From an uncultured delta proteobacterium (GTDB lineage Bacteria > Desulfobacterota > Binatia > UBA9968), in assembly GCA_963804165.1 (NCBI GenBank), contig CAWDPO010000004.1, positions 96,001 to 160,000 on the forward strand: DNA of 64,000 nt. Reading direction: 5' to 3'. This document shows, piece after piece, positions 7,151 through 24,303 of the stretch. Within the stretch, counting starts at the first letter, position 1. Each line of letters begins with the position of its first letter. The notes under the pieces were generated by a model, which was not told the DNA's origin, ran no database searches, and saw nothing but the letters and a program-made list of their open reading frames with translations. The position numbers and the translations under genes are program-made.

Positions 7151-8524
7151 ATGGGATGCAGCATTAAGAACTTCATCGGGCGAATCGCTCTCGCGGTCAT
7201 CGGGATAATCAGTACCGTCACGCTTCCGCGGGTTTCCGGATCGTTGGCGGCGGAACGCCCGTTACAGAAAATCAACGTCGCCTACAGCTCGATCTCGGGC
7301 AACGTTTCTCCGCTTTGGATTACCCAGGACAGGGGCTTCTTCCGCAAATATGGCCTCGACGTTCAAGCAATTTTGATAGAGTCCGGCACGACCACAGCAC
7401 AAGCATTGGTCGCGGGCGATATTAGCTTTGCCTCGGTAGCAGGACCGGCCGCGATTCAAAGCAATCTGCGCGGCGCGGACGTTGTCATGATCGCCGGGAT
7501 AATCAACACCCTGACGTTTCAACTTTATACCGAAAGAGGCATCACCCGTCCGGATCATTTTAAGGGCAAATCGGTCGGCGTGACACGCTATGGGTCTGCC
7601 ACCGATTTCGCGATGCGCTATGCTCTCGACAAGTACGGGTTGGACGCCAACAAGGAGGTCGCAATCCTTCAATTAGGTAATCAACCCGCACAGCTGGCGG
7701 CCCTTGAAGCCGGTAAGGTCCAAGGGGTAATGCTTTCGGCACCGACATCGCTCCGGGCAAAAAAAATGGGATTCCCCATGCTCGCCGATTTGCAAATGCT
7801 GGGATTGGAATACCAGCACACTAGCATCGCAACGACCAAGGCGTTGCTGAAATCGAAACCCGATTTGGCGCGGGACTTTCTGCGAGCCTATATCGAAGGG
7901 ATTCAATACGCCAAGACCCATCGAAAAGAAACAATGGAAATTCTCGCAAAGTATCTACGCACGGATGACAAGGAAATTCTGGATGACACCTATGAATCGA
8001 TCATTATGACGCTGGTGCCCGAAAAACCCTACCCGACCATGAAGGGATACAGATCATCCTGCGCGAGTTCGGCGCTAAAGATGCCGTCGCTCGATCGGCT
8101 CGTCCGGAGCAGTTTGTTGATATCAGCGTAATGAAGGAGTTGGACAGCTCGGGATTTATCGATCGGCTTTATAAATCACCGGCCGTCGCCAAAGTGGCGC
8201 CGAAAGGCGAACCGGTAGCCGCACCAGCAGTGGATAAGCCGGCAAATCGTGGAGGCCAAGACCAAGCCGATAGCGACTGAAGAAAAACCCAAGCCGGTCG
8301 CAAAACTAATCCCCGCCGGCCAGCGAAAAGGCCGGCCACCGTCCCCGCTGCAAAGTCCGCGGGCAGCAATACACTGTCAAACCCGGCGACACGCTCAGCA
8401 AAATAGCGGAACAATTCTACAATCCACCGGCCAAGTGGGACAAATTTATGAGGCCAAAAGCGACGTACTCAAAAATCCTAATTACATCTACGTCGGCATG
8501 AAACTAGTGATTCCGGACCGATAG
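7151..8524 (+). CDS. NitT/TauT (SsuA/NMT1-like) substrate-binding protein fused via a Pro/Ala/Lys linker to C-terminal LysM (apparent frameshifts)
   Basis: SBP motifs GFFRKYGLDV and GVTRYGSATD. After an indel near 8045 the frame continues IQIILREF...ELDSSGFIDRLYK, then linker, then YTVKPGDTLSKIAEQFY...IYEA..DVLKNPNYIYVGMKLVIP (8370-8524). Confidence 0.8.
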
Positions 8525-8542: not shown

Positions 8543-8581
8543 AAAAGCGCCGGGCGGGTAAGGCCCTCCGGCGCTTTTTTT
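8543..8581. terminator. Intrinsic terminator between convergent operons
   Basis: AAAAGCGCCGG-loop-CCGGCGCTTTTTT. Confidence 0.8.
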
Positions 8582-8605: not shown

Positions 8606-9698
8606 TCAACACAAAGGACCCAAAGAGCACGAAGTCGGCGCCTCAATCGTCCAAACCCTCGTGTCCTTCGGCTCTTGTGTGAAGTCAATTTTCTCGCCCG
8701 GGCAGTACTCGATCAGCTTTTTAAGATAGGCGAACTGCTCGATGACACGAAAATCTTGTTGATATCGCTCGAGATTTTCGCCGAGCTGTTCGATCTGTTC
8801 GTAACCAAGGTTGCCGAGAAAATCCCCCGCTAACGTCAGGTACTTCACCTTGACGTGGTTCAATGGTCATAAGCCGTGCGGTCGGTAGCGTCGACAGCGA
8901 CAAGGTCGTCGCCCATGACCAGTACTCCGCTATTTTTCGTCTCGTCCCTGTAACGGCCCATTGCCTTCCATCCCAACGATCCCATCGACGATCGCGAACC
9001 GAGGAATCGGCAGTGAGCTATTGATATCGACAATGCTGCCGTTGATACCAGCCCAATGCAGCGCATTCTTTGGCCAGCCATAGACCGAACCCGGCACGAC
9101 GCCAAACATATTTTTCAGAGAAGCGTCACCCCGGCCCAATGGTGGGTTTTGAGCTTCGGCATCGACACCAGCAAATCCGCGTCATAGAGGGTCTGCGGAA
9201 AGTATAACTGCCTCAAGTGGGTAAAACTGCTCTTCAGCTTGGTTAGCCGGACATCATCGGTATTAAGATCAACGTAGCGAACCCGATGCTCTCTAATAAC
9301 ATCGTAAAGGCCGGAAGCGCCTAGCAGATATTCGTTGTCGCGTCGATGACCTGGCCCTTCAGCGACGATGACCTCACGCGCGCCGAGAGTCTTAAACGCA
9401 TCGATCGCGGCCTCAATCACCGCCGGATGGGTATTGATCACACCTTTAGGATCGAACTCCACAAGGTTGGGTTTCAACAGCACCCGCTTACCGTCGAGAT
9501 CCAAGCGAAACAGCCGGATACCCCGAATCATTGTGTCGCGAAGCCCATTGCCGTATCGTCCGCCGCCAAAATCGCGACACGGGAAGCCTTGGCTTTGATA
9601 TAAGCCGCCTTTTCCCATCGATCTGTTTGTTCGCAGCCACCAAGGAGTGGGTACAGGGAAGCGGCAGCGGACGCTTTTAGAAATTCCCGTCGATTCAA
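8606..9698 (-). CDS. DUF362-family protein with Tat signal and lipobox (apparent frameshifts; 3' end uncertain)
   Basis: TTG 9698 gives MNRREFLKASAAA...LLGGC. Fragments VLLKPNLV, NTHPAVIEA, SMPKLKTHHWAGVTL, LKNMFG and IVDGIVGMEGNGP lie across four track ORFs. Confidence 0.8.
8609..8681. repeat. Degenerate palindromic extragenic repeat (CACRAAG-type arms)
   Basis: Left arm ACACAAAGGACCCAAAGAGCACGAAG is imperfectly complementary to right arm CTCGTGTCCTTCGGCTCTTGTGTG. Confidence 0.5.
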
Positions 9699-9707
9699 AT
9701 TCTTCCC

Positions 9708-10615
9708 CTAGACATGAAAATACCGCGCGCCATCTTCGCCGGCCAAGATGCCGAGTGCGACTGCTTTAGTCTCGCCGAGGAATTTCGTCTTGGCAAATCT
9801 TTGTTCCAAGCGCTGCTTCAGCGCTAAATCATCTTGGCCGTAAAGAGACAAACAGATCGGCTCCAGCCAAGCGCCAGACCGGAATCCGTGTTTCGTACCA
9901 TCTCGCTCAGGGCACGAAGGCTCAATTGATTTTCCTTCCTGTTCCGTTGATCTTGCAATGCGATCAGCGCAATGGCAGTGACGTCTGGATAGGGCCATAG
10001 TGTTTCACCGTAAACCGCAGCGTTGCCGTAATTCCAGCCGCCCTGGTGGCACATCCGGTCGTAAATCATGAGCTCGCCTTGCTCGACACGCTCTTGAACG
10101 GTTTTGGAGGGAAGCCGACTCTTAGTTTTTTTTAACGCGAGGAGAAAATAGCTTGTAGGCTCCACCCAACTAAAGGTGTTCGGCGTCCATGACCAACCGA
10201 TTAAGTCCTGGTTCAAATGAACGACTTTCTTTTGAAACGACAGAGCTCGAATCAGATTAGCCAGTAACCCCGGCTTGCTGCCTTCCTGTTCCAGTGCCCA
10301 ATTGCCGGCTTTAATGACTCGCTCCTGTTGATCGGTCGAGTCACTGAGCGCGATCATCGCCAGCGCTGTGCTCCACGACGACCCTTTGGTAGCACCGCTG
10401 AGCGGCCAGCTGCCGTCCGGGTTCTGGCGCTCCACAAGCCATTGCTTGGCCTTGCGAATCGCCGGTCCGTCGCCGCCCACGGCTCTAGATTGCAACGCCA
10501 AATACGCAAGTGCCGTAGCCTCCGTGTTGCTATGCTTGCCAGCCACCGCACCCCATCCGCCGTCGGGGTTTTGGCCGTTCAGCAGCAGGCTTGCCGCTTC
10601 TTCTATCATGCCCAT
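9708..10615 (-). CDS. Prenyltransferase/squalene-cyclase (QW) repeat protein (one apparent frameshift near 9860)
   Basis: Repeats LLNGQNPDGGWG, LVERQNPDGSW and GGWNYGN. C-terminus continues in ORF 9708..9998 (...FLGETKAVALGILA). Confidence 0.85.
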
Positions 10616-10621
10616 TTGGAT

Positions 10622-12205
10622 TTAGTCTCGCGCCAACTCGTAAATCTTATGTTTACCATCTCCGCTGGTAAAAACCCGTCTCGCCTTGTCGCCATAAGAC
10701 TTTAACAGGTCATCCAATAATTGGAGCGTCGCCTTCCCTTCGGCATAGCCGTTCATCGGATCGACGATCAAGTAGTCGACCTTCAATTCCTCCAGCTGCG
10801 GCTTGATCTCGTCCACCGATCCGACATCAGCTTGTGCTGCTCCATACGGATAAAAATAGGTCGCCGATCGATGCAGCGCAGGCCGGATCGCTTGGCGGCC
10901 AGTGTATAAATAATACATCGGATCATAAGCCGTGGCCAGCAAAGCGTTCGCGGGTGCATTCCGGCGAATCCACTCGAAGCTTTCCTCAAACCCGTGCCAG
11001 CTGTAAGGCATACGGCTGCCAGAGCCTCCCCGAGTGGTCTGATCGTCCTGTATCAATAAATAACTCGACAACCACACGCCGTTGACGATTAGAATCAGCG
11101 CCACCGGTAACCAGGTGATCGTTGCCAGCAATCGTCGGATCAAAGGCACTTCTCCCGTCGGCGCTATCCAATCCTTTACCGCCCCCATGCCGCGAAAAAG
11201 AAGCAGGACGAGAATGGGAACGACCGGAGCCAGGTAGCGTCCAGGATGAAAAGGCCAGATTAAAAGCAATCCGACCGACGATAAAAAAAAACTCCAGTGA
11301 ACCAGATCTTCGCGACACAGAGACTTGCTCGCCCCGATGACCGTAAAGGCAATCAAAAGCAGGTAGAGTCCCGGCATGAGTGGCGTCAAATAAAGTAGCT
11401 CGACGGTACCGGCTAAGTAGCGCGCATTCCCAGCGGCAATAATCATCTGTTGATTTACCCACGCGCTGCTCCCAACCGCCTTCGCCGCACCAAAGTCATA
11501 AGCAGCGTAATACGCGAAAAGTGAATCGCTCGATGGCAGCGACGCGCGAGATACCCACAAAAGCCACGGCGCGACAAAAAGCAACAAAATACCGCTAAAA
11601 TGTCCAACGCCGCGCCAGCCACGACTCATAAAAGAGTAAACGCATCCCGCCACGACCAACGGCGCCGCCGCCAATCGCGTCAGGCAAGCCAGTCCGGTAA
11701 CGAGCGCCAGAAACGGGATGACAAACCGTGACCTAGTAAAATCTGACCCAGACGCACAAATCGTCAGCGCGATGAGCGCAAACAAGACGAACAAGAGATC
11801 ACTGATCACATAGTCGGTAAAGGTAAAAATAATCGGGTTCGTGCAAACAATGATGGCGAAAATGATCGCGGCAAATTTCGACTCAGGAAAATAGCGCCGA
11901 TAAAAAACAATGCTGACGAAGAAAATCGCGACGAGGACCGCGATATTGAGGCTTTTCAAAACGATGATGTTCTCAGGAAAACTATGATCTAACGACCATA
12001 TCCAGGAAAGAAGGTATGAATACAAGAACGGATATTTTGTTTGAGAAGGCGACGTAGGGAGGCTGATAATTCGATAGCCGTCGCCTTGGGAGAGCGATTT
12101 GGCGACGACGGTATAAATACCGTCGTCATGGAATAATCCCAGCGCTTGCTTGTTCGCGCCCCAGAATGCAGCCCCAGCGAGCATCAGCCCAACGGCAACC
12201 ACCAA
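10622..12205 (-). CDS. Polytopic GT-C fold (PMT/ArnT-like) glycosyltransferase
   Basis: Many TM helices; acidic pair HDDGIY in the first outer loop; TKYPFLY; soluble C-terminal domain. Confidence 0.75.
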   Translation of the reverse strand: MVVAVGLMLAGAAFWGANKQALGLFHDDGIYTVVAKSLSQGDGYRIISLPTSPSQTKYPFLYSYLLSWIWSLDHSFPENIIVLKSLNIAVLVAIFFVSIVFYRRYFPESKFAAIIFAIIVCTNPIIFTFTDYVISDLLFVLFALIALTICASGSDFTRSRFVIPFLALVTGLACLTRLAAAPLVVAGCVYSFMSRGWRGVGHFSGILLLFVAPWLLWVSRASLPSSDSLFAYYAAYDFGAAKAVGSSAWVNQQMIIAAGNARYLAGTVELLYLTPLMPGLYLLLIAFTVIGASKSLCREDLVHWSFFLSSVGLLLIWPFHPGRYLAPVVPILVLLLFRGMGAVKDWIAPTGEVPLIRRLLATITWLPVALILIVNGVWLSSYLLIQDDQTTRGGSGSRMPYSWHGFEESFEWIRRNAPANALLATAYDPMYYLYTGRQAIRPALHRSATYFYPYGAAQADVGSVDEIKPQLEELKVDYLIVDPMNGYAEGKATLQLLDDLLKSYGDKARRVFTSGDGKHKIYELARD

Positions 12206-12299
12206 AACCCAGAAACGTTGTGAGACGTGATGATTGGCTTTGACCGTCGGATGCTCCTTTGCGAGCGGAGCCTAACAGAACGCTGAAAACACCGTCATG

Positions 12300-12373
12300 C
12301 TTCGAACGGCTCGCACGAACGGATAACACTCAACTATTTTAACGTCCTTCCGTTCGTCCTGAAGCGCTCGAAG
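12300..12373. repeat. REP-like palindromic element
   Basis: CTTCGAACGGCTCGCACGAACGG and CCGTTCGTCCTGAAGCGCTCGAAG form an imperfect inverted repeat around an AT-rich spacer. Confidence 0.65.
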
Positions 12374-12389
12374 GGGTGAAATTACGCGC

Positions 12390-13406
12390 CTACTTCGCCT
12401 GACCGAGCTCCTCGTCGATAATCGCCGAAAACGCCTCTACCGGCTGCGCCCCGGAAATCTCGCGGCCGTTGATGAAAAACGTCGGCGTGCCCGTGATCCC
12501 CAATTGAGCGCCTTCGGAAAGATCTTTTTGGACGAGAGCCTTATATTTGCCACTCGTCAAGCACTGGTCGAATTTCGTCGTATCCAGAGACATTTCCTTG
12601 GCGTAAGCGTTTAAGTCGGGCGCAGCCAGCTTCGGCGCCTTCGCATAAAGCGTATCGTGATACTCCCAAAATTTTGCCTGATCGCCAGCGCATCGCGCCG
12701 CCTCCGCCGCAAGTTGGGCCCGGGGATGTATCGCTTCAAGCGGTAAATCCTTATGGACAACACGGACTTTGCCGTTGTACCGCTTCAACACCGTCGCGAG
12801 CGTGGGCTGGACATTTTTGCAGAAGGGGCACTCGAAGTCTTCGAATTTTATGATCGTGACCTGCGCCTTTTCAGAGCCCTTGAACGGCGCGCCATTGATC
12901 GACATTTGCGCTCGTTGAATTGCTGGAGGCTTTAAATACGTTGTAACCTTTGCCTTGGAACGGAGAATCTTGAAATAGTCCATCTTCCGTGCCGCAATCT
13001 TCTGTTCCCGCAGATAATCGCGAATCTGATCATGGACCTTGTCCAACTCCACCCCTATGCGGCTCTTATTGGTCTCGTAAAACGCTCGAATTTCCTCCTC
13101 CGAAACCGGAGAAGCTTTGGCAGTCACCTCCTGCTCCATAAGCGTAGAGACCGAAACACTCCGCTCCTTCGCTTCGCGCGATAGGAGGGTCGCTCCAATG
13201 TGTTCGTTCAGTTTTTGCCGCTCTAACTGGTAGAGTTGCTGACGTAAGGTTTGAAGTTGTTTTCCGCCCGAACGATCGATTTCAGCTCGCGTGATTACAG
13301 TGCCGTCGACCTCCGCGAGCTTTTCCGAATCTTTCGAGGGGCCACAATTCCAACCCGCCCCAAGAGATAAGCCGAGTAGAAGAAAAAACCGACAAAATTT
13401 TTGCAT
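12390..13406 (-). CDS. DsbA/thioredoxin-family oxidoreductase with N-terminal SurA-like helical domain
   Basis: FEDFECPFC active site; GITGTPTFFING cis-Pro loop; signal peptide with Cys. Confidence 0.9.
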   Translation of the reverse strand: MQKFCRFFLLLGLSLGAGWNCGPSKDSEKLAEVDGTVITRAEIDRSGGKQLQTLRQQLYQLERQKLNEHIGATLLSREAKERSVSVSTLMEQEVTAKASPVSEEEIRAFYETNKSRIGVELDKVHDQIRDYLREQKIAARKMDYFKILRSKAKVTTYLKPPAIQRAQMSINGAPFKGSEKAQVTIIKFEDFECPFCKNVQPTLATVLKRYNGKVRVVHKDLPLEAIHPRAQLAAEAARCAGDQAKFWEYHDTLYAKAPKLAAPDLNAYAKEMSLDTTKFDQCLTSGKYKALVQKDLSEGAQLGITGTPTFFINGREISGAQPVEAFSAIIDEELGQAK

Positions 13407-13429: not shown

Positions 13430-13465
13430 GGAGTGGCCGCCGTCTCTCAAAGTGTCGGCCACTCC
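13430..13465. terminator. Stem-loop downstream of tadG (possible weak terminator)
   Basis: GGAGTGGCCG ... CGGCCACTCC, a 10-bp inverted repeat with a poor U-tract. Confidence 0.4.
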
Positions 13466-13519: not shown

Positions 13520-14557
13520 TCAATATCCCTTGCCAGCCTCCCGCACCAGTCTATGAGAAAAACAAAGACTAAGCTCGGCGTCGTTTATGAGTTCTGGACC
13601 GCAAACTACCTTCGCTTGTATGTACTTGGGATTGCCTGTGGTCTCGAAGGCTGTCGGATAGATTTTAGCAAAGTTCGTGATTCCCGTCGGGTTATCTGGA
13701 GCACAATTGCCGCCACCCCCTAGAACCGGAATGATCCACCAGCGGTTTGGGTTTGCAGTGAAGAATTTTTCAGCCGCTTGCAAAACACTGTTTACCTGCC
13801 CTCTGTTTTGGCAAATCATACTGCCGAGAGCGAGATTCCCGGCTAGTGTGGCGCCCGAGCAGCTTCCCGCAGTCGTGAACCCCGCTTTAATGTCTGGCGC
13901 ACCCGAAGAACAATCGAAAAAAGTTGTCCAACAAGCATTCTCGCCAGCGGGGTTCTCGCCATCACTGCTCGGGTGTTGCATCTGTATTTTGACGTCATAC
14001 TCAACCCCGTTTTGTGCGCACTGAGTTGACCACAAAGCGATTGGAATCGACGGCTTCGATTGTATGACCGAAACCGCGCTAACGTTTACATTGTTGGCTC
14101 CGGGAGCCGAGCCCCCAAACAGGTTAAACAGCGGAGTGAGAAAAGCCGGAGTCGCTATCGCGCTGTTTGTCGCTTGCTCCAACGCGACACGCACCCCATT
14201 GGCGGTTGCGATCGGTGCGGAATAATTGGTGATCTGGTTCGTAGTAAAATCGTACTGAATATAGCTGACATTGGCGCTGTGGATCGGATTATTGGGACTG
14301 TTGACGTAGTTATTGTTCGAAGCAAACGCGGCGGCTCGGGTTTTGACGTCTGCATCAATGCGGCTCGGCAGCGCGGAAACCGCCGACAGAGCGGCGGCGT
14401 CAACGGCCGCTTGCCCCGTAGCTCGGCTGTAGGTGAGTTGACCGGTATCCAGCCCCATTCCTACCATGATCATCAACAACACGATCATGAGAGTCATAAA
14501 CACGAGCACTGAGCCTTTGTCATTGCTTACGGAAAACATCTCAAACCTCCTTAACAA
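13520..14557 (-). CDS. tadG: TadG-like pilus-associated protein, Cys-rich C-terminal domain
   Basis: KGSVLVFMTLM...GMGLDTG....R...QAAVDAAALSA Tad N-terminal motif. Confidence 0.85.
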   Translation of the reverse strand: MLRRFEMFSVSNDKGSVLVFMTLMIVLLMIMVGMGLDTGQLTYSRATGQAAVDAAALSAVSALPSRIDADVKTRAAAFASNNNYVNSPNNPIHSANVSYIQYDFTTNQITNYSAPIATANGVRVALEQATNSAIATPAFLTPLFNLFGGSAPGANNVNVSAVSVIQSKPSIPIALWSTQCAQNGVEYDVKIQMQHPSSDGENPAGENACWTTFFDCSSGAPDIKAGFTTAGSCSGATLAGNLALGSMICQNRGQVNSVLQAAEKFFTANPNRWWIIPVLGGGGNCAPDNPTGITNFAKIYPTAFETTGNPKYIQAKVVCGPELINDAELSLCFSHRLVREAGKGY

Positions 14558-14563
14558 CTCCGC

Positions 14564-15055
14564 TTAAGGTGAGGTGATTGTCGGAGTCTCATCACAGGGT
14601 GCATGGTATGTAGCCGGCTGAGCCGCATGACGCATACGCGCTGTACGTGTAATTGGCTGATTGTTCGGAGCAGAAAAACCAAAAAGCCTGATGACCTGAT
14701 AAAGAAAGTAATTGTAGGTTCCTCCCCCACTGACTTGGACAAACCGGGCGCAATCCGTCGCTCCCTCTGCGTGAAAAGTAACCGTCGCGGTTTTCGATCC
14801 TAACCAAGCGGGAATTCTACTAAGAGCATCATTCTTGATGGCTGTACTGGCTGCCGTATCAAAAGGATCAGTAGATGCTGCTATCCGAGCCGATTCTCGC
14901 ACGGCGTTTTGGGTTAGGTGTGCAACCGAAAAGGCTACACCGAAATCGGCCGGGACGTACAAAGCAACCAATAGTAGAGGAGTGATTAATGCAATCTCTA
15001 CAATGCTCTGTCCCTTCCGATTCAAGACTTTCGGTAGAAGACCCGTTCTTAACAT
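14564..15055 (-). CDS. tadE: TadE-like pseudopilin
   Basis: KGQSIVEIALITPLLL...AVRESARIAA. Confidence 0.9.
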   Translation of the reverse strand: MLRTGLLPKVLNRKGQSIVEIALITPLLLVALYVPADFGVAFSVAHLTQNAVRESARIAASTDPFDTAASTAIKNDALSRIPAWLGSKTATVTFHAEGATDCARFVQVSGGGTYNYFLYQVIRLFGFSAPNNQPITRTARMRHAAQPATYHAPCDETPTITSP

Positions 15056-15579
15056 TGATGCTCCCAGCGCATAGTGGCAGAGCGCTGAATAGTGACTGGA
15101 TTCACCGTAGCACCCATGAGACGAAGCAGTTGGTAGAAAAAATATGGATACTGACCAGATGCGGTAACTTGTACCAGCTGATTACAACCAGCCGACCCAG
15201 GAGCTGGGTATGACACAGTGATAGACGTAGTCGCACCCATCAGAGCCGACGGTAGACGCACCGCGGTTTCGTTATAAATGTTGCCGAAACTAAAGCACGA
15301 AGACAGCGGTGGGCCACAAGTAGCACTAACCGCTGTAAGCGTCGGATCGGCCGCCGCGATCCTTGCCCCCTCACGCACAGCATTCTGAGCTATTTGTCCC
15401 GTATAAAATGCCAGGCCAAAGTCGGCGGGAATCCAAGCAATCACCACAAGTAGAAGGAAGACAAGCGTGAACTCGACCAGCGCTTGGCCTCTATTGTCGC
15501 AACAGACGCGTATAGTAGTAGATGATGCCGGACGCAAGCGGGGATGAACCGTACTCGTTAAGATGCTCCGTCTTCCCAT
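15049..15579 (-). CDS. tadE: TadE-like pseudopilin
   Basis: RGQALVEFTLVF...AVREGARIAA. Confidence 0.9.
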   Translation of the reverse strand: MGRRSILTSTVHPRLRPASSTTIRVCCDNRGQALVEFTLVFLLLVVIAWIPADFGLAFYTGQIAQNAVREGARIAAADPTLTAVSATCGPPLSSCFSFGNIYNETAVRLPSALMGATTSITVSYPAPGSAGCNQLVQVTASGQYPYFFYQLLRLMGATVNPVTIQRSATMRWEHQC

Positions 15580-15800
15580 TGTCCCTATGCCCTTTCACGA
15601 ATTGTGCCGGGCGCTATGAAACCTATTTGTCTCGGTCCGCGCTGGTTTGTCTTGCTCTGGCAGCCATTTGGCTCAGGCACGCTTCCACCAAAGAAGCCCT
15701 TCGCATTTGATCTGGGCAATAGTGCCCAATTTCGGATTGGTAGAAATCGAACGAGCAGCCCATTGTCCGCAGTAATATAGAAGTTCGCGGCCCGTATTTT

Positions 15801-16199
15801 TTAACCAATCTGGCTAAGACGCGTATCCCTCAAATCGTCCATCTCCGAAGTTTCCGCTAGGGAGATCTCGAATTGGTCGCCGATCTCCGAGTGTGATTTT
15901 CGTATCGTGCCGCTCGGCAGTTCGAGCACGCTGTAGCCTCGAAAGTGGACCGCGCTGATTCGATACGGCGCAAGACCGGACATCAGGCCCACCACGTGAT
16001 TGCCCCTGTTTAGAAAAACCACATCAATGGGAAATTTCATCCCGATGGTATGAATTCCTTTGCTCGGCATCAGCCACAATGCTTCCTCCGGCCCGAGATT
16101 GGTCCTTTTCAGCAGCCCGACCAACCGCGTGAGAAAGTTGTCGGCTTTCCGTACTTTGGTTGCAAGCCAGGTCTTTTTCGTTAAGTTGATTACCGGCAC
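15801..16199 (-). CDS. DUF192-family protein
   Basis: ADNFLTRLVGLL, IHTIGMKFPIDVVFL and VLELPSG. Confidence 0.9.
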   Translation of the reverse strand: MPVINLTKKTWLATKVRKADNFLTRLVGLLKRTNLGPEEALWLMPSKGIHTIGMKFPIDVVFLNRGNHVVGLMSGLAPYRISAVHFRGYSVLELPSGTIRKSHSEIGDQFEISLAETSEMDDLRDTRLSQIG

Positions 16200-16213
16200 C
16201 TAAACATTCCTCT

Positions 16214-17146
16214 TCACCTGCCAACGGATCCGAAAGCATCTCCATGATCCCGAGCCCCGGAGGTCCGAGCAAGAATAATGAAAATCGCCGGGAGAATAAA
16301 AAACACCAGTGGAAAAATCAGTTTAATAACAGTTTTGCGCGCCGCTTCTTCGGCGGCCTGGCTGCGTTTGTCTCGCATGGTTTCGGCGTAAACCCGCAGC
16401 GAACGGGCGATGCTACCACCCATTTCTTCGGTTTGCGTGAGAAATGTAACAAGGCCTTGAAATTCGTCGATGCCGACTCGTTCCGCCAGACGGAGCAAGG
16501 CCTCTTTACGCACCGCTCCGGCCTGCATCTCTTGAGTGGCGAGCATAAGCTCTTCACCCAGAGCGAGATTCTTGCGAATTTTGTTCTCGCCCAACCGCGT
16601 TAGACGCCGCATCGACGCCCATGCCGGCTTCGACGCAGACGACGATCAAATCAAGAGTGTCTGGTAGAGTCTCCCGCATTTCCCGGACCCGGGCGCGAGA
16701 TTTACGAAAAACAGTGAGAAACGGCAGCATATAGCCGGTTGCCGCACCTGCCCGCGAGCATCAAGAAGTCGGGCATCGATGCGCTCGAACTGCAACGCCA
16801 CAAACCATCCCACCGAACGCGAAAGCGACGCAAAAAAGATTCTGAGACCCCAGAAAATCCGTACCGCTCGATTGCCACGATAACCCGCTTGGTGTAACCG
16901 CCGGCTGATCATGATTGAAGCGATCCGGCAATTCTTTGTCGCCAAAAAAGAAATTGGCGATCCGCTCCCAAAAAGTCATTTCATCGTTGTCATGCAGCCG
17001 AATCTGCGCTCGCGCCTCGCTCCTGAGTCCGATATTGTCCAGGCGCCGTTGAATGGCCTCTTCAGCGATCGGGGCCGGGAGGCGAAGATAAAGTAGACGA
17101 CCGCCGATACCAATCCAAAGAATCCGACGGCGATTAGTAGTTCCAT
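16214..17146 (-). CDS. tadC: TadC (T2SS-F family) platform protein, apparent frameshifts
   Basis: Fragments LHQAGYRG, PDTLDLIV, EALLRLAER, EEMGGSIARSLR and AEEAARK...LIFPLVFFILPA. ATG at 17146. Confidence 0.85.
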
Positions 17147-17156
17147 AAAATCACCC

Positions 17157-18139
17157 CTAGATATGAATCTTAATAATCTTGCGGAACACTAGGATTCCGC
17201 ATATTTCCAACACTAGAGCCGCGGCCAACATGCCTCGACCGATAGGATTGGGCATCATTTTGTTCATCATTTCCGTTTCACGCATAAACATAAACACCGC
17301 CAGAAACGGCGGCACGGAACATACCGTCCAGGCGCTGACGCGGTTTTGCGCGGTCAAACTTTTGATCAACCGCTCGATTCGGAAGCGGTCGCGAATGATA
17401 TTGGCCAAGCTTGTTGAGCAACTCGGCCAAGCTGCCACCGACTTCTCGCTGCACCATAAGCGCGGTGTTAAACAGCCGAACTTCGGGTAGAGTTCATCCG
17501 CTCTTCGAATTTCCGTAATGCATCGGCGAGCGGCAGTCCTAGATTCACCTCTTCGATAAATACGGAGAATTCGGTTCCCATCGGATCAGGCATCTCCTTC
17601 GCGACGAAAACCATCGGCTTGGGTCAAGCCCAAACCGGCTTGAAGGCTCTGGCCGATCATATCGAGCCCGTCCGGGAATTGTTCAAGAAACTTGCTCAAC
17701 CGTTTCCAAATGACTAACTGCACATAGACAGAAGGGGCAGAACAACGCGATCAGAGCAAAAACAAGGCTCAGCAGGTCGCTTGGCCCAAATCGATGCCAG
17801 CAAAAAAGTCAACGCCGCCAGCGCCGACGGAGCAGAGCAGAAATAATGCCCGGCGTCATATCGACGTTCGCTCTCTCCAGCAAGAGATCAATGCGGTGCA
17901 TGAATCTTTATTCGTGACAAAAAGTCATTAACCCAAGGGAACTTCGCTGTAGATCGAGGTTTTGAGTAGGCTCTGAATTTCTGCCTTGGATGCATAGTCG
18001 AGCCTGCCGATCGCCGTCAGTCGACGCTTGATTCGCGCCTGCGCCGTATCCTGCACCGCCATTGGCAACATGAAAAGAATAACGATCAGCGAGACCGCCG
18101 CAAAGAAACGAAAATATACGTGATAAGGAGCAGGCTCAT
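17157..18139 (-). CDS. tadB: TadB (T2SS-F family) platform protein, apparent frameshifts
   Basis: Fragments EQFPDGLDMI, KEMPDPMGTEF and IRDRFRIERLIKSLTAQNR. ATG overlaps the tadA stop (ATGA). Confidence 0.85.
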
Positions 18140-19527
18140 AACGCCCTTCTTTTCGCCCCCATCGAGACGGGCAAGAAATGAGTGTTCGGAATCCTAAAAC
18201 CATACCGTTCCAATCGGTCCATGAAGGATGGCATAACGCCGGTCGCAACGAACTCGCCGACAACTTTGCCGTTTTCCACACCTCGCTGTTCAAACTTGAA
18301 GATCGTCTGAGTAGTTATGGTATTGCCTTCCATACCGGTGACTTCAGAAAACTCGATCACCTTTCTGCTGCCGTCACTCAACCGGGTCAGCTGCACGATC
18401 ACATCGATCGCGGAAGCGACTGCTCACGCAACGCTCTTTCCGGCAAATCGATTCCCGCCATGAGCATCATGGTTTCCAAGCGAGACAGCGCATCGCGTGC
18501 ACTATTGGCATGGACTGTACTGATCGAACCATCGTGACCGGTATTCATCGCCTGCATCATGTCGAGCGCCTCGCCACCGCGGACCTCGCCGACGACGATG
18601 CGGTCAGGTCTCATTCGCAACGCGTTACGGACCAGGTCGCTGGCCGTCACCGCGCCCTGGCCCTCGATATTCGGCGGCCGGGTTTCAAGTCGCACTACAT
18701 GTTCCTGCTGGAGCTTTAGTTCGGCCGAGTCTTCGATGGTCACAATGCGTTCATTTTCCGGAATGTAATTCGACAAGCAATTCAGAAGCGTTGTTTTGCC
18801 CGCGCCGGTACCTCCGGAAACGATCATATTGAGCCGCGACTTGACGCAGGCCGCTGCGACTTCCGCCATTTGCGGCGGGATCGAATTGAACTGAATCAAA
18901 TCATTGATCGTCAGTCGTTCCGCGCCGAATCGCCGGATCGAGAGCACCGGACCATCCAGTGCCAGGGGCGGAATAATCGCGTTCACGCGCGAGCCGTCGG
19001 CCAATCGAGCATCCACCATTGGCGAACTCTCATCGACGCGTCGGCCGACCCGCGTGACAATTCGCTCGATAATCTGCATCAGATGGGCATCGTCGCGGAA
19101 CCGCACATCGGTTTTTTCAAGCTTGCCATAACGCTCGACGTAGATTTGACTGACGAATTGACAAAGATATCGGAAATCTCCGGATCCTTCATGAAAGTTT
19201 CCAGAGGGCCTAAGCCAAAGACTTCATGCTGGACTTCCATCACCAACCGATCGCGATCGGCACGACTGAGCGGGATGGCTTCCGCCATGACCATGTCTTC
19301 GAGAATGCGCCGAATTTCCACGCGCACCCGTTCCATCTCCAGATTGGAAAGCTTGGACAGATCCAAGGTATCGATGAGCTTGCGATGGATGCGTAGTCGC
19401 AAATCTTGCAAAATGACATCCGGGCTCGTCGTCTGCAGGGATCTGAATGGCGAACGGCCGCCCATCCGCCGCCAGTTCGATCAGCGTCCCAACGATCTTT
19501 ATCCGATTCGAACGATGGATTCTTCAT
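18136..19527 (-). CDS. tadA: TadA/CpaF pilus assembly ATPase, apparent frameshifts
   Basis: [47 protein letters not shown] and AMNTGHDGS. Confidence 0.95.
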
Positions 19528-19546
19528 TGACTTGCCCCTTACTTAA

Positions 19547-20765
19547 TTAATCCACGCACCGGCGGTAATAACCGACCGAAGCAAGACCCGATCTTTTGTC
19601 GTTCTTCGATCTCCGCTCGAGACGATCCCAGAAAACGGAAACGTATTGAGCCACAGCATCGGTTAGCCCGGAGTAACTCTTGGCGATATCGGACCTAGGG
19701 TCGCATTCCTGAATCGATAACCCTTGATTGACCGCGGCAATCGCGACGGGATAGTTATTAGGAAGCGTCCAAAAAACTTTCACACCAAGCGCTTTTTCGA
19801 CCGACTCCAAAGTCATCAGCTTGCTCTTGACGTAGCGATTAAGAATCAAGCGAATCTTCTTGTCGTAAATACCCATGCGCTCGAAAAGCTCCAGTGCGCG
19901 ATGGGCACTCTTAAGCGAAGGGACATCCATCTCAGTTATGAACAGGATCAAATTCGCTTTATCGAGCACCAGTGCGAGCATGTCGTCAAATTCCTTTGGA
20001 GTATCGACGACGACATAATCAAAGGACTGCGCCAATACATCCAAGATTTCGTCGATGTCCGCCGGCGTGATACGCCGCGCATCCTCGGCATAAAAAGGCT
20101 CGGCCAGAACTCGGATTCCCGACGCGTGTTTTACCAGGGAGCCATCGAGAAAAAGCGGATCGATTCGTTTCAGATTCTTGACTAAATCAAGAATCGTGTA
20201 GGAGGCGTCGATATTAAGAAAGCTCGTCACCGAACCAAACTGCAGCACGAGATCGACCAAACAAACCGATTTCTTTTGCGCCACTAGACATGCCGCCAAG
20301 TTGGTCGCCGCCGTAGTCGAACCCACGCCGCCTTTGTTCGAGGAAATGGCTATAATGTGCCCGCGTTCCGCCGCTTTTTGCGCGTGAACATCGATTTTTT
20401 TACGAATCGTATCGAACGATTTAAGAACTTCAGTCCAATTAAAAGGTTGCGTGAGAAATTCTTCAGCGCCCGAGCGCATCGCGCGCAGAATCGCGTCTGG
20501 CGCACCGGTCGGCGAAGTCATCACAAGACGAACGTTGGCGAGGCGTAATTTAATTTGCTCGGCTACAGTAAAAGCCCGTTCCGGGTCCACGATTGATGTC
20601 GACCACGGCAACGATTGGGCCACTGCGGGTTTTGAGCGCGTCAAAAGCCTCGCCATAGCCATAAATCCGCGGGTCAACCGATACCGATACTTCTTTTTCA
20701 AGCTGTTGCTTCAACGAAGCTAGAGCCAGGCTATCTTCGCCGATGAGACAAATTGGTAACTTCAT
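19547..20765 (-). CDS. cpaE: CpaE/TadZ (receiver-like plus MinD-type ATPase), apparent frameshift
   Basis: AMRSGAEEFL, KGGVGST, LVDL.LQFG and DYVVVDTP. N-terminus lies in ORF 20550..20765. Confidence 0.9.
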
Positions 20766-20818
20766 TGCCGGTTGCTATTTATCGTTGATGCCACATCATT
20801 TCAATTCTGTATGGCCGA

Positions 20819-22358: not shown

Positions 22359-22380
22359 CATGAACTCCTCCCCTTCCCAG

Positions 22381-23208
22381 TTAGAATTCCACCACATTTC
22401 GATTACTACCATGGATCACTTCGACTCGATATTTATCAGGCGGCGGAGCGACAGTGCCGCCGCCACCTTGCGCGGTGCCGCCGCGAGCGCCAACAAATCG
22501 CGCTTGTTGCTGCCAATAGTTGTCGTAGCAGCGTCATCGCCAAGACCGCGCAGATGCCATGGCAATCTGGCCCTCTTGGAGGCTAACGACAGCTTTTCTG
22601 CTTCTTCAGGAGTAACTTCCAGCGTGATCGAACGTGCGAGTTGCGGTTTTCCATCTTTCTGCTCGGTACTTTGCGCAACCGACAAGGACTCGCTTATTCT
22701 GCAACACAATTTTCGAAATTTTGGTATCCGCGTCTGCCGCCCATGTGGGGTCGTGGTCAAAATGATATCAACCCGGTCATCGGGACAATAAATCCGCTGA
22801 CACCGATAATTTCATCGACCCGGAGCGCCAAGGCTCGCTTGCCAGCCTCCAGCCGAACAGTAAGCCCGGCGCCTTCGCCGGCTAGACGTGATTCCAATAT
22901 TGGCTCATTGGCTAAGAATCTTTACGCGATTCACTTTGCCAACAACTTGCTGCGGCGATGAAAATGCGCCAGCCGGCATCGAAGTCTTTGGCCAAGGCGT
23001 GGTCTTGATCAGTCCCTTCTTGATCGCCTCGTCATTGAGAGTCGTACCGGCGAGGAATATCCTGGGCCGCCACGACAATCTCTTGGTTCGCCGCTTTCGC
23101 ATCCTCCCTCTTTTTGTCTGATCACTGAGAAAATTGTAAATTCCATACGCCGCGATGAGCCCGAAAAATACCGCGACCACTAGAGCAATCTTTAAGCCTA
23201 TTCTGCAT
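22381..23208 (-). CDS. cpaB: CpaB/RcpC pilus assembly protein, apparent frameshifts
   Basis: ATG 23208; SAF-like segment; VDEIIGVSGF, DRVDII, ITLEVTPEEAEKLSLA; ends VEVIHGSNRNVVEF*. Confidence 0.9.
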
Positions 23209-23864: not shown

Positions 23865-24014
23865 TATTAACTTGTCAAAGCGTACACGTCATATCAAAAA
23901 GCTTGTCAATGAAATTTCGCGGCATACTCACCGCAAGTCATGCACGTGGCTCGAAAACAGACTGATAGCGGCCTCCGAGCCACGCTGTTAGTATGTAACA
24001 ATAGAACCCGAGTC

Positions 24015-24207: not shown

Positions 24208-24286
24208 TAAATCGTTCACCCCCTTTCTTATTTTATCGTGACTTCGAATTCTTTGATAACTCTGTGTCAACGAACATGAGCGGTAA

Positions 24287-24303
24287 AGCAGAATACATGC
24301 CAA
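24287..24303 (-). promoter_or_regulatory. Sigma-54 promoter for flp/tad
   Basis: Minus strand TTGGCATGTATTCTGCT (GG-N10-GC), 80 bp upstream of the flp ATG. Confidence 0.7.

What the first reader, a model, noticed from the sequence alone, without database searches (positions are those of the whole stretch)
8606..13406. Tad-linked tail cluster: DsbA, GT-C, QW-repeat protein and Tat-lipoprotein DUF362
Seen: four genes co-directional with and directly after tadG, the last three separated by 10 bp or less. DUF362 has RREFLK plus LLGGC, a Tat lipoprotein signal. The QW-repeat protein has no obvious signal peptide and no DXDD cyclase motif. Known: GT-C enzymes use lipid-linked sugars outside the cytoplasm, Tat exports folded, often cofactor-loaded proteins, and DUF362 function is unknown. 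Inference: an uncharacterised envelope or pilin modification pathway, with the QW protein possibly co-exported.
Basis: partly seen in the sequence, partly recalled or inferred. Interest (0 to 1): 0.7.

Follow-up and report, generated by a model that had tools for sequence, protein, structure and literature searches.

The report
Tad-linked periplasmic modification gene set
Behind the genes for a Tad adhesion pilus lie four genes for exported proteins: a disulfide-forming enzyme, a membrane sugar-transferase of an undescribed family, and a conserved pair of unknown function that probably leaves the cell interior as one folded complex.

Summary
The four genes are real. They lie on the minus strand after tadG, with gaps of 113, 184, 6 and 9 nt. 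In this assembly the QW gene carries one frameshift and the DUF362 gene at least five. Two short-read contigs from public runs (0 and 1 mismatches) lack two of these shifts, and a 94%-alike contig lacks two more. Orthologues in short-read MAGs are intact. The breaks are therefore most likely assembly errors. The 527-aa protein matches no Pfam model but folds as a GT-C glycosyltransferase with an invariant HDD after TM1.

The set is two separable modules:
- **DsbA-like + GT-C:** follows tadG in 8 of 9 close relatives.
- **QW + DUF362:** present in 4 of 12 close relatives. The two genes are adjacent in 18 of 18 further loci from two phyla, 9 of them within 10 kb of tad genes.

DUF362 has a LarA (lactate racemase) fold (Z 15-17) and a conserved twin-arginine signal. 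QW never has a signal. The two are predicted to bind (0.87 against 0.00 in controls) and occur as natural fusions.

Best reading: a Tat-exported heterodimer working with GT-C enzymes on a Tad-linked glycan. The function is unproven. The scan had noted the same pair beside tadG in another genome.

The parts
13520..14557 (-). TadG-like pseudopilin, last Tad gene before the set
   Evidence: Pfam Tad 3.1e-7. It has 8 Cys. Orthologues have 8, 10 and 6 Cys, always an even number.
13430..13465 (-). inverted repeat (10-bp stem) in the 113-nt gap between tadG and the DsbA-like gene
   Evidence: RNA fold -23.8 kcal/mol, z -1.61, no U-run. Not listed by the terminator scan.
12390..13406 (-). secreted SurA_N + DsbA-like thiol oxidoreductase (CPFC), intact, 338 aa
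   Evidence: Thioredoxin_4 5.5e-36, DSBA 5.7e-22, SurA_N_3 1.2e-6. Lies directly upstream of the GT-C gene in 9 of 9 close relatives that have an upstream flank.
10622..12205 (-). GT-C-fold membrane glycosyltransferase of a family without a Pfam model, intact, 527 aa (start uncertain; orthologues have 538-547 aa)
   Evidence: AF2 model pLDDT 79.6, pTM 0.83. Every Foldseek match with probability 1.00 is a GT-C enzyme, among them STT3, AglB, PglB, ArnT, DPY19, AftA/B/D and ALG9 (E from 1.6e-7, TM 0.5-0.62). H26 D27 D28 are invariant in 22 sequences. No Pfam or NCBIfam hit.
9708..10615 (-). QW-repeat alpha/alpha-toroid protein (about 300 aa), no signal peptide, one frameshift near 9858 in this assembly
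   Evidence: SQHop_cyclase_C/N. Squalene-hopene cyclase chains match at 3e-17. A 151-base short-read contig with 0 mismatches carries one extra base behind 9858. With that base the frame is open for 304 codons. Orthologues have 299-301 aa.
9633..9698 (-). twin-arginine lipoprotein signal of DUF362 (NRREFLK ... LLGGC)
   Evidence: R3 and R4 are at least 90% conserved in 42 family members. Pfam TAT_signal matches 12 of 42. TatC is present twice in the genome.
8606..9698 (-). DUF362 protein with LarA-like fold (about 330 aa in orthologues); at least five frameshifts here (near 9558, 9112, 8939, 8885, 8862); the true stop is probably near 8705
   Evidence: PF04015. Intact 330-aa orthologues exist in L004 and L009. 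Read contigs contradict the shifts at 9558, 8939 and 8885. The ortholog model has pLDDT 91.2. VIA-align Z is 15.0-16.9 to 12 LarA-family entries; the next best is 6.9.
8543..8578 (.). terminator-like hairpin between the convergent DUF362 and NMT1/LysM genes
   Evidence: RNA fold -26.8 kcal/mol, z -2.97, 0 of 200 shuffles fold as well.
14564..16199 (-). context: two TadE-like pseudopilin genes (14564-15055, 15049-15579) and a DUF192 gene (15801-16199)
   Evidence: Pfam TadE 1.6e-9 and 1.1e-11, DUF192 3.4e-14. DUF192 lies next to QW-DUF362 in L014 and L060.

Best explanation
The end of this Tad pilus operon carries two separable accessory modules that act outside the cytoplasm.

**Module A.** This is a secreted SurA_N/DsbA-like oxidoreductase plus a GT-C-fold glycosyltransferase with an HDD motif in its first periplasmic loop. 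I infer that the oxidoreductase handles the cysteine-rich pseudopilin TadG. I also infer that the GT-C enzyme moves a sugar from a polyprenyl-phosphate donor onto a Tad component or a nearby envelope molecule.

**Module B.** This is a signal-less QW toroid protein plus a LarA-fold DUF362 protein with a twin-arginine (here lipoprotein) signal. I infer that the two fold and bind in the cytoplasm. Tat then exports them together, with QW as hitchhiker. They sit on the outer face of the inner membrane, where their conserved faces form a joint site. That site acts on a lipid-linked sugar or a glycan used by GT-C-type enzymes.

**Shown here:** gene order, folds, motifs, conservation and the natural fusions.
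**Predicted:** the complex.
**Inferred:** co-export, the substrate and the link to pilus modification.

The broken frames in the window are most likely assembly errors, so the real organism probably has all four genes intact.
For: **Assembly errors**
- Contig X3 record 16 (9744-9893, 0 mismatches) has an extra base behind 9858. Contig X4 record 20 (9505-9654, 1 mismatch) has an extra base behind 9558.
- Contig X1 record 2 (8858-9019, 10 mismatches) lacks one base at 8885 and one at 8939.
- Applying the four changes opens QW to 304 codons and joins the DUF362 signal to its domain.
- Orthologues are intact in L004 and L009.
- Genome completeness is 80.9% at 7.5 Mb.
- The neighbouring tad genes and the NMT1/LysM gene are fragmented too.

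**GT-C**
- Fold matches and the invariant HDD.

**DsbA and TadG**
- DsbA lies upstream of GT-C in 9 of 9 close relatives with an upstream flank, and TadG lies upstream of DsbA in 8 of those 9.
- TadG has even Cys counts of 8, 8, 10 and 6.

**The QW-DUF362 pair**
- DUF362 is adjacent to QW in 11 of 11 loci of the window's phylum and in 7 of 7 loci from the phylum of L014, labelled Acidobacteriota.
- ipSAE is 0.86, 0.87 and 0.87 against a best control of 0.00. The runs share at least 91% of contacts, and the partner pLDDT is at least 84. That mark was reached by 116 of 157 solved complexes and 2 of 215 mismatched pairs.
- No solved structure matches DUF362 by sequence, so the score is not recalled from a known complex.
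- Conserved residues lie in the interface. On DUF362 they are D121, D144, G204, Y207, G208, W209, P210 and N212. On QW they are W141, W148, E150, N193 and Y194.
- 4 of 150 listed representatives are 630-662-aa fusions. The N-terminal halves of two of them match the QW profile at 1.8e-34 and 5.4e-28.

**Tat**
- An RR motif is found in 39 of 42 by pattern, plus one RREW variant.
- TatC is present.

**Tad and glycosylation context of the pair**
- tad genes lie within 10 kb in 5 of 11 loci and in 4 of 7 loci.
- Neighbours include PMT_2 and TMEM260-like GT-C proteins, GtrA, GT2, GT4, GT9, GT87, PAP2 and DegT.
- Unannotated proteins of 7-14 TM lie next to the pair in L014, L018, L034, L036 and L039.
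Against: - No experiment or RNA data exists. Co-transcription across the 113-nt and 184-nt gaps and the 13430 hairpin is untested.
- The read evidence rests on single contigs of depth 2-2.4. The shifts near 9112 and 8862 are not covered.
- The modules are separable. QW-DUF362 is missing downstream of GT-C in 8 of 12 close relatives.
- This GT-C family was not found by tblastn next to the pair in 18 of 18 further loci.
- GT-C homologues of 35-50% identity in L015, L016, L017 and L019 have no tad gene or pair in view.
- Half of the further pair loci (9 of 18) show no tad gene within reach. Six of those nine are short or cut contigs.
- The four fusion proteins have no N-terminal signal. In those lineages the pair probably works in the cytoplasm.
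- Outside the window's relatives most DUF362 signals lack a lipobox. Only 11 of 42 have one.
- Profile comparison of the GT-C family with three neighbouring polytopic proteins was not significant.
- The Caulobacter Tad pilus structure showed no density for glycosylation (one passage of PMC10710030).
Confidence: 0.5

Rival explanations
1. The genes are neighbours of tad by descent only. The GT-C enzyme and its DsbA-like partner modify a general envelope molecule, as ArnT does with lipid A or as a glycan or lipoprotein glycosylation system would. QW-DUF362 serves some unrelated periplasmic chemistry.
For: - JGI names 9 of the 120 listed GT-C homologues 'ArnT-like'.
- ArnT 5f15 is among the fold matches.
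- GT-C homologues in L015-L017 lie beside lysine-synthesis or other unrelated genes.
- 9 of 18 pair loci show no tad gene in view.
- The gaps of 113 nt and 184 nt allow separate promoters.
Against: - The pair lies near tad genes in at least three families of the window's phylum (f17, f36, f52), in the window's own lineage, and in six loci from Acidobacteriota-labelled genomes. Gene orders differ between them.
- By my own rough estimate, a random gene should lie within 10 kb of a tad locus in about 1% of cases.
- TadG is followed by DsbA in 8 of 9 close relatives.
Confidence: 0.25
2. QW and DUF362 form a cytoplasmic or inner-face enzyme. The RR-containing N-terminus is only a membrane anchor or a relic, and nothing is co-exported.
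For: - The fusion proteins have no signal peptide, and their linkers keep a decayed RR-hydrophobic remnant.
- Many family members lack a cleavage or lipobox motif after the hydrophobic stretch: 31 of 42.
Against: - The RR motif is at least 90% conserved across 42 diverse members.
- Pfam TAT_signal is recognised in 12 of 42, with a best E-value of 2.3e-7.
- A lipobox cysteine follows the signal in the window and in its relatives L001, L004, L005, L009 and L013. In L014 it does too.
Confidence: 0.2
3. QW and DUF362, and much of the tad locus, are true pseudogenes in this organism. The locus is decaying.
For: - There are six or more frameshifts in 1.9 kb, and many more between 16.2 and 23 kb.
- Frameshift-poor and frameshift-rich stretches alternate along the contig.
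Against: - Near-identical short-read contigs carry the intact frame at two sites, and a 94%-alike contig does so at two more.
- The pieces are still 82-89% identical to the intact Binatia orthologues in L001, L004, L005 and L009.
- No in-frame stop is seen apart from those that the shifts create.
- Related long-read MAG loci show frameshifts of their own in other genes (L002, L005, L010).
Confidence: 0.1
4. The pair is not an enzyme. It is a periplasmic structural or assembly factor of the Tad machine, for example a scaffold or a pilin chaperone.
For: - QW lacks the DxDD motif (0 of 25). One family member has no cysteine at all, so the Zn site of prenyltransferases (recalled) cannot be general.
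- The R75 and His200 equivalents of LarA are not kept in DUF362.
Against: - DUF362 keeps residues aligned with the two catalytic histidines and the cofactor lysine of LarA (residue roles from passages of PMC11770544).
- The most conserved residues of both proteins face each other, as they would at an active site.
- The pair also occurs away from tad and beside glycosyltransferases.
Confidence: 0.15

Closest known systems
TfpW (with TfpX, DprE1/DprE2 and a GtrA-like protein) of Pseudomonas aeruginosa group IV pilins
   Same: TfpW is a GT-C-family membrane glycosyltransferase with a DDX motif. It is encoded right behind a type IV filament gene and uses lipid-linked sugar made by an epimerase pair (passages of bioRxiv 10.1101/2020.04.19.049825). 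Here a GT-C-fold enzyme with HDD follows pseudopilin genes. GtrA and other glycosyltransferase genes accompany the pair elsewhere.
   Different: - The filament is a Tad (type IVc) pilus, and the GT-C gene follows pseudopilin genes, not the major pilin gene.
- TfpW itself was not compared here. The GT-C family here matches no Pfam model.
- No DprE1/E2 homologue was sought or seen.
- The partners are a DsbA-like protein and a LarA-fold/toroid pair.
- No glycan has been shown.
ArnT / PMT_2-type and STT3/AglB/PglB GT-C glycosyltransferases
   Same: - The fold matches: TM 0.5-0.62, E down to 1.6e-7.
- About 10 or more TM helices.
- An acidic motif right after TM1.
- A small C-terminal periplasmic domain.
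   Different: - The sequence is outside the Pfam models. PMT_2 matches 2 of 22 members and Glyco_transf_22 matches 1 of 22, all below the cut-offs.
- No WWDYG-type motif is among the invariant columns (the motif is recalled).
- Donor and acceptor are unknown.
LarA lactate racemase superfamily (nickel-pincer nucleotide enzymes; Pfam clan CL0471)
   Same: - DUF362 and DUF2088/LarA share a Pfam clan (passage of PMC11770544).
- The model aligns to 12 LarA-family entries at Z 15.0-16.9, rmsd about 3 A, over about 210 residues.
- H118, H186 and K196 align with the invariant LarA His, His and Lys. These correspond to His108, His174 and K184 of LarA1.
   Different: - The profile match is weak: E 7.7e-4, probability 25%.
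- The equivalents of R75 and His200 are not kept.
- DUF362 is shorter (330 against about 430 aa), carries a Tat signal and has a toroid partner.
- No LarA (Lar_N) gene was found in G000 or in 40 relatives.
- The cofactor is unknown.
Tat 'hitchhiker' export of signal-less partners (hydrogenase large subunits with HybO-type small subunits, DmsB with DmsA; recalled, not checked here)
   Same: One subunit has the twin-arginine signal. The partner is signal-less, is encoded next to it and is predicted to bind it.
   Different: - Neither subunit belongs to a known Tat-hitchhiker family.
- No metal-cluster motif is present. DUF362 of L009 has no cysteine besides the lipobox one.
- Export is untested.
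Squalene-hopene cyclase / protein prenyltransferase beta-subunit toroids
   Same: QW repeats are found by Pfam. Squalene-hopene cyclase chains match at 3e-17, and farnesyltransferase beta chains match at about 1e-5.
   Different: - It is a single 300-aa toroid, whereas the cyclases have about 630 aa.
- DxDD is found in 0 of 25.
- No conserved cysteine is present.
- It partners a LarA-fold protein.
STT3 with the thioredoxin-like Ost3/Ost6 subunits of eukaryotic oligosaccharyltransferase (recalled)
   Same: A CxxC thioredoxin-fold protein is paired with a GT-C enzyme. STT3 in OST complexes is the top fold match. The likely client TadG is cysteine-rich.
   Different: The pairing rests only on gene adjacency. 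The protein is DsbA-type with a SurA_N domain and is not a membrane subunit. No interaction was tested.

Membership tests
GT-C glycosyltransferase superfamily | polytopic membrane protein with the GT-C fold | tested here: met
   AF2 model pLDDT 79.6, pTM 0.83. All Foldseek matches with probability 1.00 are GT-C enzymes. A crude hydropathy count gives about 10 TM.
GT-C glycosyltransferase superfamily | conserved acidic (DxD/DDx) motif in the first extracytoplasmic loop | tested here: met
   H26 D27 D28 are invariant in 22 sequences, directly after the first helix. The DDX motif is called characteristic of GT-C in a passage of 10.1101/2020.04.19.049825.
GT-C glycosyltransferase superfamily | membership of a curated GT-C sequence family (PMT_2, ArnT-like, STT3 and others) | tested here: not met
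   The window protein has no hit. Among 22 family members, PMT_2 matches 2 (best 1.4e-4) and Glyco_transf_22 matches 1 (0.034), all below the cut-offs.
GT-C glycosyltransferase superfamily | polyprenyl-phosphate-linked sugar donor | not testable with these tools
   Needs biochemistry.
DsbA-like thiol:disulfide oxidoreductases | thioredoxin fold with a CxxC active site | tested here: met
   Thioredoxin_4 5.5e-36, DSBA 5.7e-22. CPFC is in the translation.
DsbA-like thiol:disulfide oxidoreductases | export to the periplasm | tested here: inconclusive
   A hydrophobic N-terminus is visible. It has no canonical lipobox, and no signal-peptide predictor was available.
DUF362 (PF04015) | match to the Pfam model above its cut-off | tested here: met
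   The window piece scores 92.7 bits against a cut-off of 24. 42 of 42 aligned family members match.
LarA superfamily (nickel-pincer nucleotide racemases/epimerases) | LarA fold | tested here: met
   VIA-align Z 15.0-16.9 to 12 entries; the next unrelated entry scores 6.9. The Foldseek top 13 are all LarA family.
LarA superfamily (nickel-pincer nucleotide racemases/epimerases) | catalytic His108/His174 and the NPN-binding residues K184, R75 and His200 (LarA1 numbering, PMC11770544 passages) | tested here: inconclusive
   In hhalign of A3 against 10 LarA homologues (E 7.7e-4, probability 25%), H118, H186 and K196 align with the invariant His, His and Lys. The R75 column holds F82, and the His200 column falls in a gap.
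LarA superfamily (nickel-pincer nucleotide racemases/epimerases) | match to the Lar_N Pfam model | tested here: not met
   1 of 42 members matches, at E 0.0071.
LarA superfamily (nickel-pincer nucleotide racemases/epimerases) | cofactor synthesis genes present | tested here: inconclusive
   LarC (PF01969) is present in G000. It is also present in 358 of 401 genomes of the phylum, so it says little. LarB and LarE were not searched.
Tat-exported lipoprotein | twin-arginine motif, moderately hydrophobic stretch and lipobox cysteine | tested here: met
   NRREFLK...LLGGC in the window. RR is at least 90% conserved. TAT_signal matches 12 of 42. A lipobox-like Cys is found in 11 of 42, among them the window's relatives L001, L004, L005, L009 and L013.
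Tat-exported lipoprotein | Tat machinery in the genome | tested here: met
   Two TatC matches, 1.1e-70 and 2.3e-67.
Class II terpene cyclases (squalene-hopene cyclase type) | DxDD catalytic motif and a two-domain, roughly 630-aa architecture | tested here: not met
   DxDD in 0 of 25. Lengths are 286-325 aa. Only the QW repeats match.
Tad (Flp) pilus locus | CpaF/TadA ATPase, TadB/C, RcpA secretin, RcpC, TadZ, prepilin peptidase, Flp, TadE/F/G | tested here: met
   Pieces of all of these lie upstream in the window. The intact set is in L013. TadE, TadE and TadG are in the window. An Flp-like ORF is at 23938-24315.

The most novel reading that the evidence does not exclude
QW-DUF362 would be the first extracytoplasmic member of the LarA world. 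In this reading it is a Tat-exported enzyme loaded with a cofactor (nickel-pincer-like or metal). Its toroid subunit holds the polyprenyl tail of a lipid-linked sugar, and its LarA-fold subunit epimerises or oxidises the sugar by hydride transfer. It would then be a functional counterpart of DprE1/DprE2 that feeds GT-C enzymes decorating Tad pili. In parallel, the DsbA-like protein would serve the GT-C enzyme as Ost3/6 serves STT3, holding the cysteine-rich TadG open for glycosylation.
Probability: 0.12. Interest if true: 0.85.

Novelty: new variant of a known kind. Interest (0 to 1): 0.6.

Why it matters
- **Tad pili.** Tad pili mediate adhesion and biofilm formation in many phyla, yet no dedicated modification enzymes are described for them. 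The full-text searches turned up only the statement that the Caulobacter pilus shows no glycan density (listing, passage).
- **A testable partner set.** A conserved, Tad-linked pair of unknown function, now with a predicted heterodimer, an export route and a fold, gives a concrete set of experiments.
- **DUF362.** The family is large: 8158 representatives at E up to 0.001. No paper on its function turned up. A search for 'DUF362' found 14 papers and one for 'PF04015' found 9. None deals with its function, judged from the listings and from passages of two papers.
- **LarA chemistry.** Evidence that DUF362 keeps the LarA fold and three of five key residues bears on an open question: which enzymes besides LarA use the nickel-pincer cofactor. 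That question is recalled, not checked here. G000 and 40 relatives have no LarA, and G000 has LarC.
- **Annotation.** The case also shows that long-read MAG indels can hide such genes from annotation.

Tried and rejected
- **Earlier notes by place or words:** nothing found.
- **Public runs:** only small shares of the stretch were found (0.05-0.08). The contigs cover parts only. Uncovered parts, including the shifts near 9112 and 8862, say nothing.
- **PDB by sequence:** no match for DUF362 as a single sequence or as a profile. The weak polymerase kappa rows at E 0.25 are chance. No match for the GT-C profile either.
- **LarC co-occurrence as a test of an NPN link:** useless, because LarC is in 358 of 401 genomes.
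- **hhalign of the GT-C profile against three polytopic neighbours of the pair (L039 623 aa, L036 757 aa, L014 616 aa):** not significant, probability below 2%. Two local alignments do fall on an H-D-D/A motif after the first helix.
- **Wrong-frame query:** one query piece (DUF362_b) was cut in the wrong frame. Its hits are ignored.
- **Wrong ORFs:** three ORFs (L067, L068, L072) were not the LarA gene. They were left out of alignment A4, which uses 10 of 13 candidates.
passages of PMC8460266 mention no DUF362, prenyl- or glycosyl- term. Not followed further.
- **Promoter and terminator scan:** counts are near the shuffled expectation (8 against 5.6, and 14 against 10.1). It gives no operon boundary.
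- **Rejected readings:** QW is not a terpene cyclase, because it has no DxDD. DUF362 here is not an iron-sulfur protein, because it has no cysteines beyond the lipobox, although other DUF362 proteins carry Fe-S domains (passage of PMC5742341).

Full report
**Anatomy.** The finding lies on the minus strand. Reading 5' to 3' on that strand, the genes are as follows.
- Two TadE-like genes lie at 15049-15579 and 14564-15055.
- A TadG-like gene lies at 13520-14557.
- A gene for a 338-aa protein with SurA_N and DsbA/Thioredoxin_4 domains and a CPFC motif lies at 12390-13406.
- A gene for a 527-aa polytopic membrane protein lies at 10622-12205.
- A QW-repeat gene starts at 10615.
- A DUF362 gene starts with TTG at 9698.

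The intergenic gaps are 113, 184, 6 and 9 nt. The 113-nt gap holds a 10-bp inverted repeat (13430-13465) without a U-run, and 13 of 200 shuffles fold as well. A stronger terminator-like hairpin (8543-8578; 0 of 200 shuffles) closes the set against a convergent NMT1/LysM gene. The DUF362 N-terminus reads NRREFLKASAAASLYPLLGGC.

**Broken frames.**
- The DUF362 gene changes frame near 9558, 9112, 8939, 8885 and 8862, and perhaps once more at its end.
- The convergent NMT1/LysM gene is split too, and so are most tad genes between 16.2 and 23 kb. CpaF is in three pieces and the secretin in four.
- Genome-wide, most 5-kb bins are well covered by long frames (median 0.88), but some stretches are not. 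The genome scores only 80.9% complete at 7.5 Mb.

Public runs hold small parts of the stretch. Laid on the window, they show the following.
- A 151-base contig with 0 mismatches over 9744-9893 has one extra base behind 9858.
- A contig with 1 mismatch over 9505-9654 has one extra base behind 9558.
- A contig with 10 mismatches over 8858-9019 lacks one base at 8885 and one at 8939.

With these four changes the QW frame is open for 304 codons, and the DUF362 signal joins its domain. Orthologues in short-read MAGs are intact: QW has 299-300 aa and DUF362 has 330 aa in L004 and L009. Related long-read MAG loci have frameshifts of their own in other genes. I therefore take the breaks as assembly errors, at about 85%. 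The caveats are that each contig has depth of about 2 and that two shift sites are uncovered.

**Module A: DsbA-like protein and GT-C enzyme.**
- The 527-aa protein matches no Pfam or NCBIfam model.
- Among 22 family members, only 2 touch PMT_2 and 1 touches Glyco_transf_22, all below the cut-offs.
- The family is well conserved: 331 proteins at E up to 0.001 among 8000 scored candidates. The listed ones have 500-579 aa. JGI names 9 of the 120 listed 'ArnT-like'.
- An AlphaFold2 model (pLDDT 79.6, pTM 0.83) finds only GT-C enzymes at probability 1.00. Among them are STT3, AglB, PglB, ArnT, DPY19, AftA/B/D and ALG9 (E from 1.6e-7, TM 0.5-0.62).
- H26-D27-D28, right after the first helix, are invariant. 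This is the place of the GT-C acidic motif.

The search for related loci gave 19 loci for this family.
- 12 loci are at 52-72% identity. Of these, 9 have an upstream flank. All 9 have the DsbA-like gene directly upstream of the GT-C gene. In 8 of them TadG lies before it, and the ninth contig ends 262 bases upstream of the DsbA-like gene.
- TadG has 8 cysteines here, and 8, 10 and 6 in three orthologues. An adjacent oxidoreductase therefore makes sense as its folding helper. That is an inference.
- More distant homologues (35-50%) in L015, L016, L017 and L019 show no tad gene in view. The family is thus not bound to tad everywhere.

**Module B: QW and DUF362.**

*Distribution.*
- Downstream of the GT-C gene, QW-DUF362 is present in only 4 of the 12 close loci (L001, L004, L005, L009), plus the window and the more distant L013. 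In the other 8 the convergent gene follows the GT-C gene directly.
- The two genes themselves stay together. A QW search of 401 genomes of the window's phylum found 12 genomes including G000. In all 11 other loci DUF362 lies next to QW.
- A DUF362 search of 301 genomes of the phylum of L014 (record title Acidobacteriota) found 8 including G441. In all 7 other loci QW lies next to it.

*Signals.*
- DUF362 keeps a twin-arginine motif. R3 and R4 are at least 90% conserved in 42 sequences. 39 of 42 match by pattern, plus one RREW variant, and 2 do not match. Pfam TAT_signal matches 12 of 42.
- A lipobox-like cysteine follows the signal in 11 of 42, among them the window's relatives L001, L004, L005, L009 and L013.
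- QW has no N-terminal hydrophobic stretch in 24 of 25 sequences. The one flagged stretch is the first repeat helix.
- TatC is present twice in the genome.

*Predicted complex.*
- The pair from L009 was folded with my own alignments. It scores ipSAE 0.86, 0.87 and 0.87 against 0.00 in three controls. At least 91% of contacts are shared between runs, and the partner pLDDT is at least 84.
- That mark was reached by 116 of 157 solved complexes and 2 of 215 mismatched pairs, counts that hold only roughly with own alignments.
- No solved relative of DUF362 exists by sequence, so memory of a known complex is unlikely.
- The interface holds the most conserved residues of both proteins.

*Fusions.* Four of the 150 listed representatives are 630-662-aa proteins with DUF362 in the C-terminal half. 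The N-terminal halves of two of them match the QW profile at 1.8e-34 and 5.4e-28. These fusions have no N-terminal signal.

**What DUF362 is.**
- DUF362 shares Pfam clan CL0471 with DUF2088/LarA (passage of PMC11770544).
- The model of the L009 protein (pLDDT 91.2) has LarA-family enzymes as its 13 best Foldseek matches.
- By VIA-align, 12 LarA-family entries score Z 15.0-16.9 (rmsd about 3 A, about 210 residues), and the next entry scores 6.9.
- I aligned 10 LarA homologues taken from genomes of the phylum and compared the profiles. The match is weak but collinear over 267 columns (E 7.7e-4, probability 25%).
- In that comparison H118, H186 and K196 lie on the invariant LarA His, His and Lys. 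The columns of R75 and His200 are not matched. Passages of PMC11770544 name His108 and His174 as catalytic, and K184, R75 and His200 as cofactor-binding.
- G000 has LarC but no Lar_N match. None was found in 40 relatives either.
- LarC is in 358 of 401 genomes of the phylum, so it does not discriminate.
- Whether DUF362 binds a nickel-pincer cofactor stays open.

**Link to Tad and to glycosylation.**
- tad genes lie within 10 kb of the pair in 5 of 11 loci (L034, L037, L038, L039, L040) and in 4 of 7 loci (L056, L057, L060, L061).
- Of the 9 loci without tad genes, 6 are short or cut contigs.
- The tad-linked cases come from at least three families of the phylum (f17, f36, f52), from the window's own lineage, and from six loci from Acidobacteriota-labelled genomes (L014, L018, L056, L057, L060, L061). 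Gene orders differ between them.
- Other neighbours are glycosylation genes:
  - a PMT_2 GT-C protein directly downstream of the pair (L040);
  - a TMEM260-like GT-C protein (L042);
  - GtrA (L036);
  - GT2, GT4 and GT9;
  - in L014 and L018, GT87, PAP2 and DegT.
- Unannotated proteins of 7-14 predicted TM helices also lie nearby. Their relation to GT-C is not shown.
- Sigma-54 activators recur beside the pair.
My data agree on the Tad link and disagree on the location for the signal-bearing forms.

**Mechanism and rivals.**
- The best-supported reading is two periplasm-directed modules, as set out under Best explanation.
- The heterodimer and its Tat route are predicted, not shown. The substrate is inferred from the neighbours.
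- The signal-less fusions show that the pair can also work in the cytoplasm. That would fit a substrate present on both faces of the membrane, such as a lipid-linked sugar. This is speculation.
- The rivals are inherited adjacency without function in Tad, a cytoplasmic pair, true pseudogenes and a non-enzymatic assembly factor.

**Comparison with what is known.**
- The closest system is TfpW of P. aeruginosa. It is a GT-C enzyme with a DDX motif encoded behind pilA, and it depends on DprE1/DprE2 and a GtrA-like protein (passages of bioRxiv 10.1101/2020.04.19.049825).
- Pilin glycosylation there protects against pilus-specific phages (start of the abstract of 10.1101/150227 in the listing).
- The present set differs in four ways: the filament type, the GT-C family, the DsbA-like partner and the LarA-fold/toroid pair.
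- Searches for 'DUF362' (14 papers) and 'PF04015' (9 papers) gave no paper on its function, judged from the listings and from passages of two papers.
- The supplements of the papers were not read.

**Verdict.**
- It is a new variant of pilus-linked modification gene sets. Its one truly uncharacterised component, the QW-DUF362 heterodimer, now has a fold, a partner and a probable export route.

Noticed in passing
window 16200-23200 (minus strand): Most tad genes are in pieces. CpaF is split at 18136-18402, 18399-19106 and 19079-19465. The secretin is in four pieces across 20819-22308. TadB/C are fragmented. The pieces are 97-99% identical to intact genes in related MAGs (CpaF piece), which looks like the same assembly-error problem.
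   Followed up: partly
window 7151-8524 (plus strand): The convergent NMT1/LysM-type gene (455-473 aa in L004, L009 and L013) is split into 7151-8131 and 8249-8524.
   Followed up: partly
window 15801-16199; L014 5499-5957; L060 9090-9461: A DUF192 gene sits between tadC and tadE here. It lies directly beside QW-DUF362 in two loci from Acidobacteriota-labelled genomes, and directly before GT-C-QW-DUF362 in L013. It may be a third conserved partner.
   Followed up: no
L008 2806-13245: The block DsbA-like, GT-C, NMT1/LysM and the next gene occurs twice in tandem in one long-read MAG. This is either a duplication or an assembly artefact.
   Followed up: no
G000:C8:10265-11383 (L044): The genome has a LarC (nickel insertion) gene but no LarA. 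No LarA was found in 40 relatives, while 59 of 121 other genomes of the phylum have LarA. The user of the cofactor in this lineage is unknown.
   Followed up: partly
   Followed up: no
L014 12105-15373; L018 2414-6710 and 17488-18771: The Tad-linked loci from Acidobacteriota-labelled genomes carry GT87 mannosyltransferase-like genes (one in L014, two in L018). L014 also has a PAP2 phosphatase and L018 a DegT aminotransferase. Together these look like a lipid-linked sugar pathway.
   Followed up: no
P0367, P0375, P0395, P0444: In the fused QW-DUF362 proteins the linker keeps a decayed remnant of the RR and hydrophobic signal (for example an SFRRW...GLGG stretch in P0395). This suggests the fusions arose from the two-gene form.
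   Followed up: partly
window 23938-24315 (minus strand): An Flp-type pilin ORF with a G/LVEY processing motif. Its 3' part runs on oddly long, possibly because of another indel.
   Followed up: no
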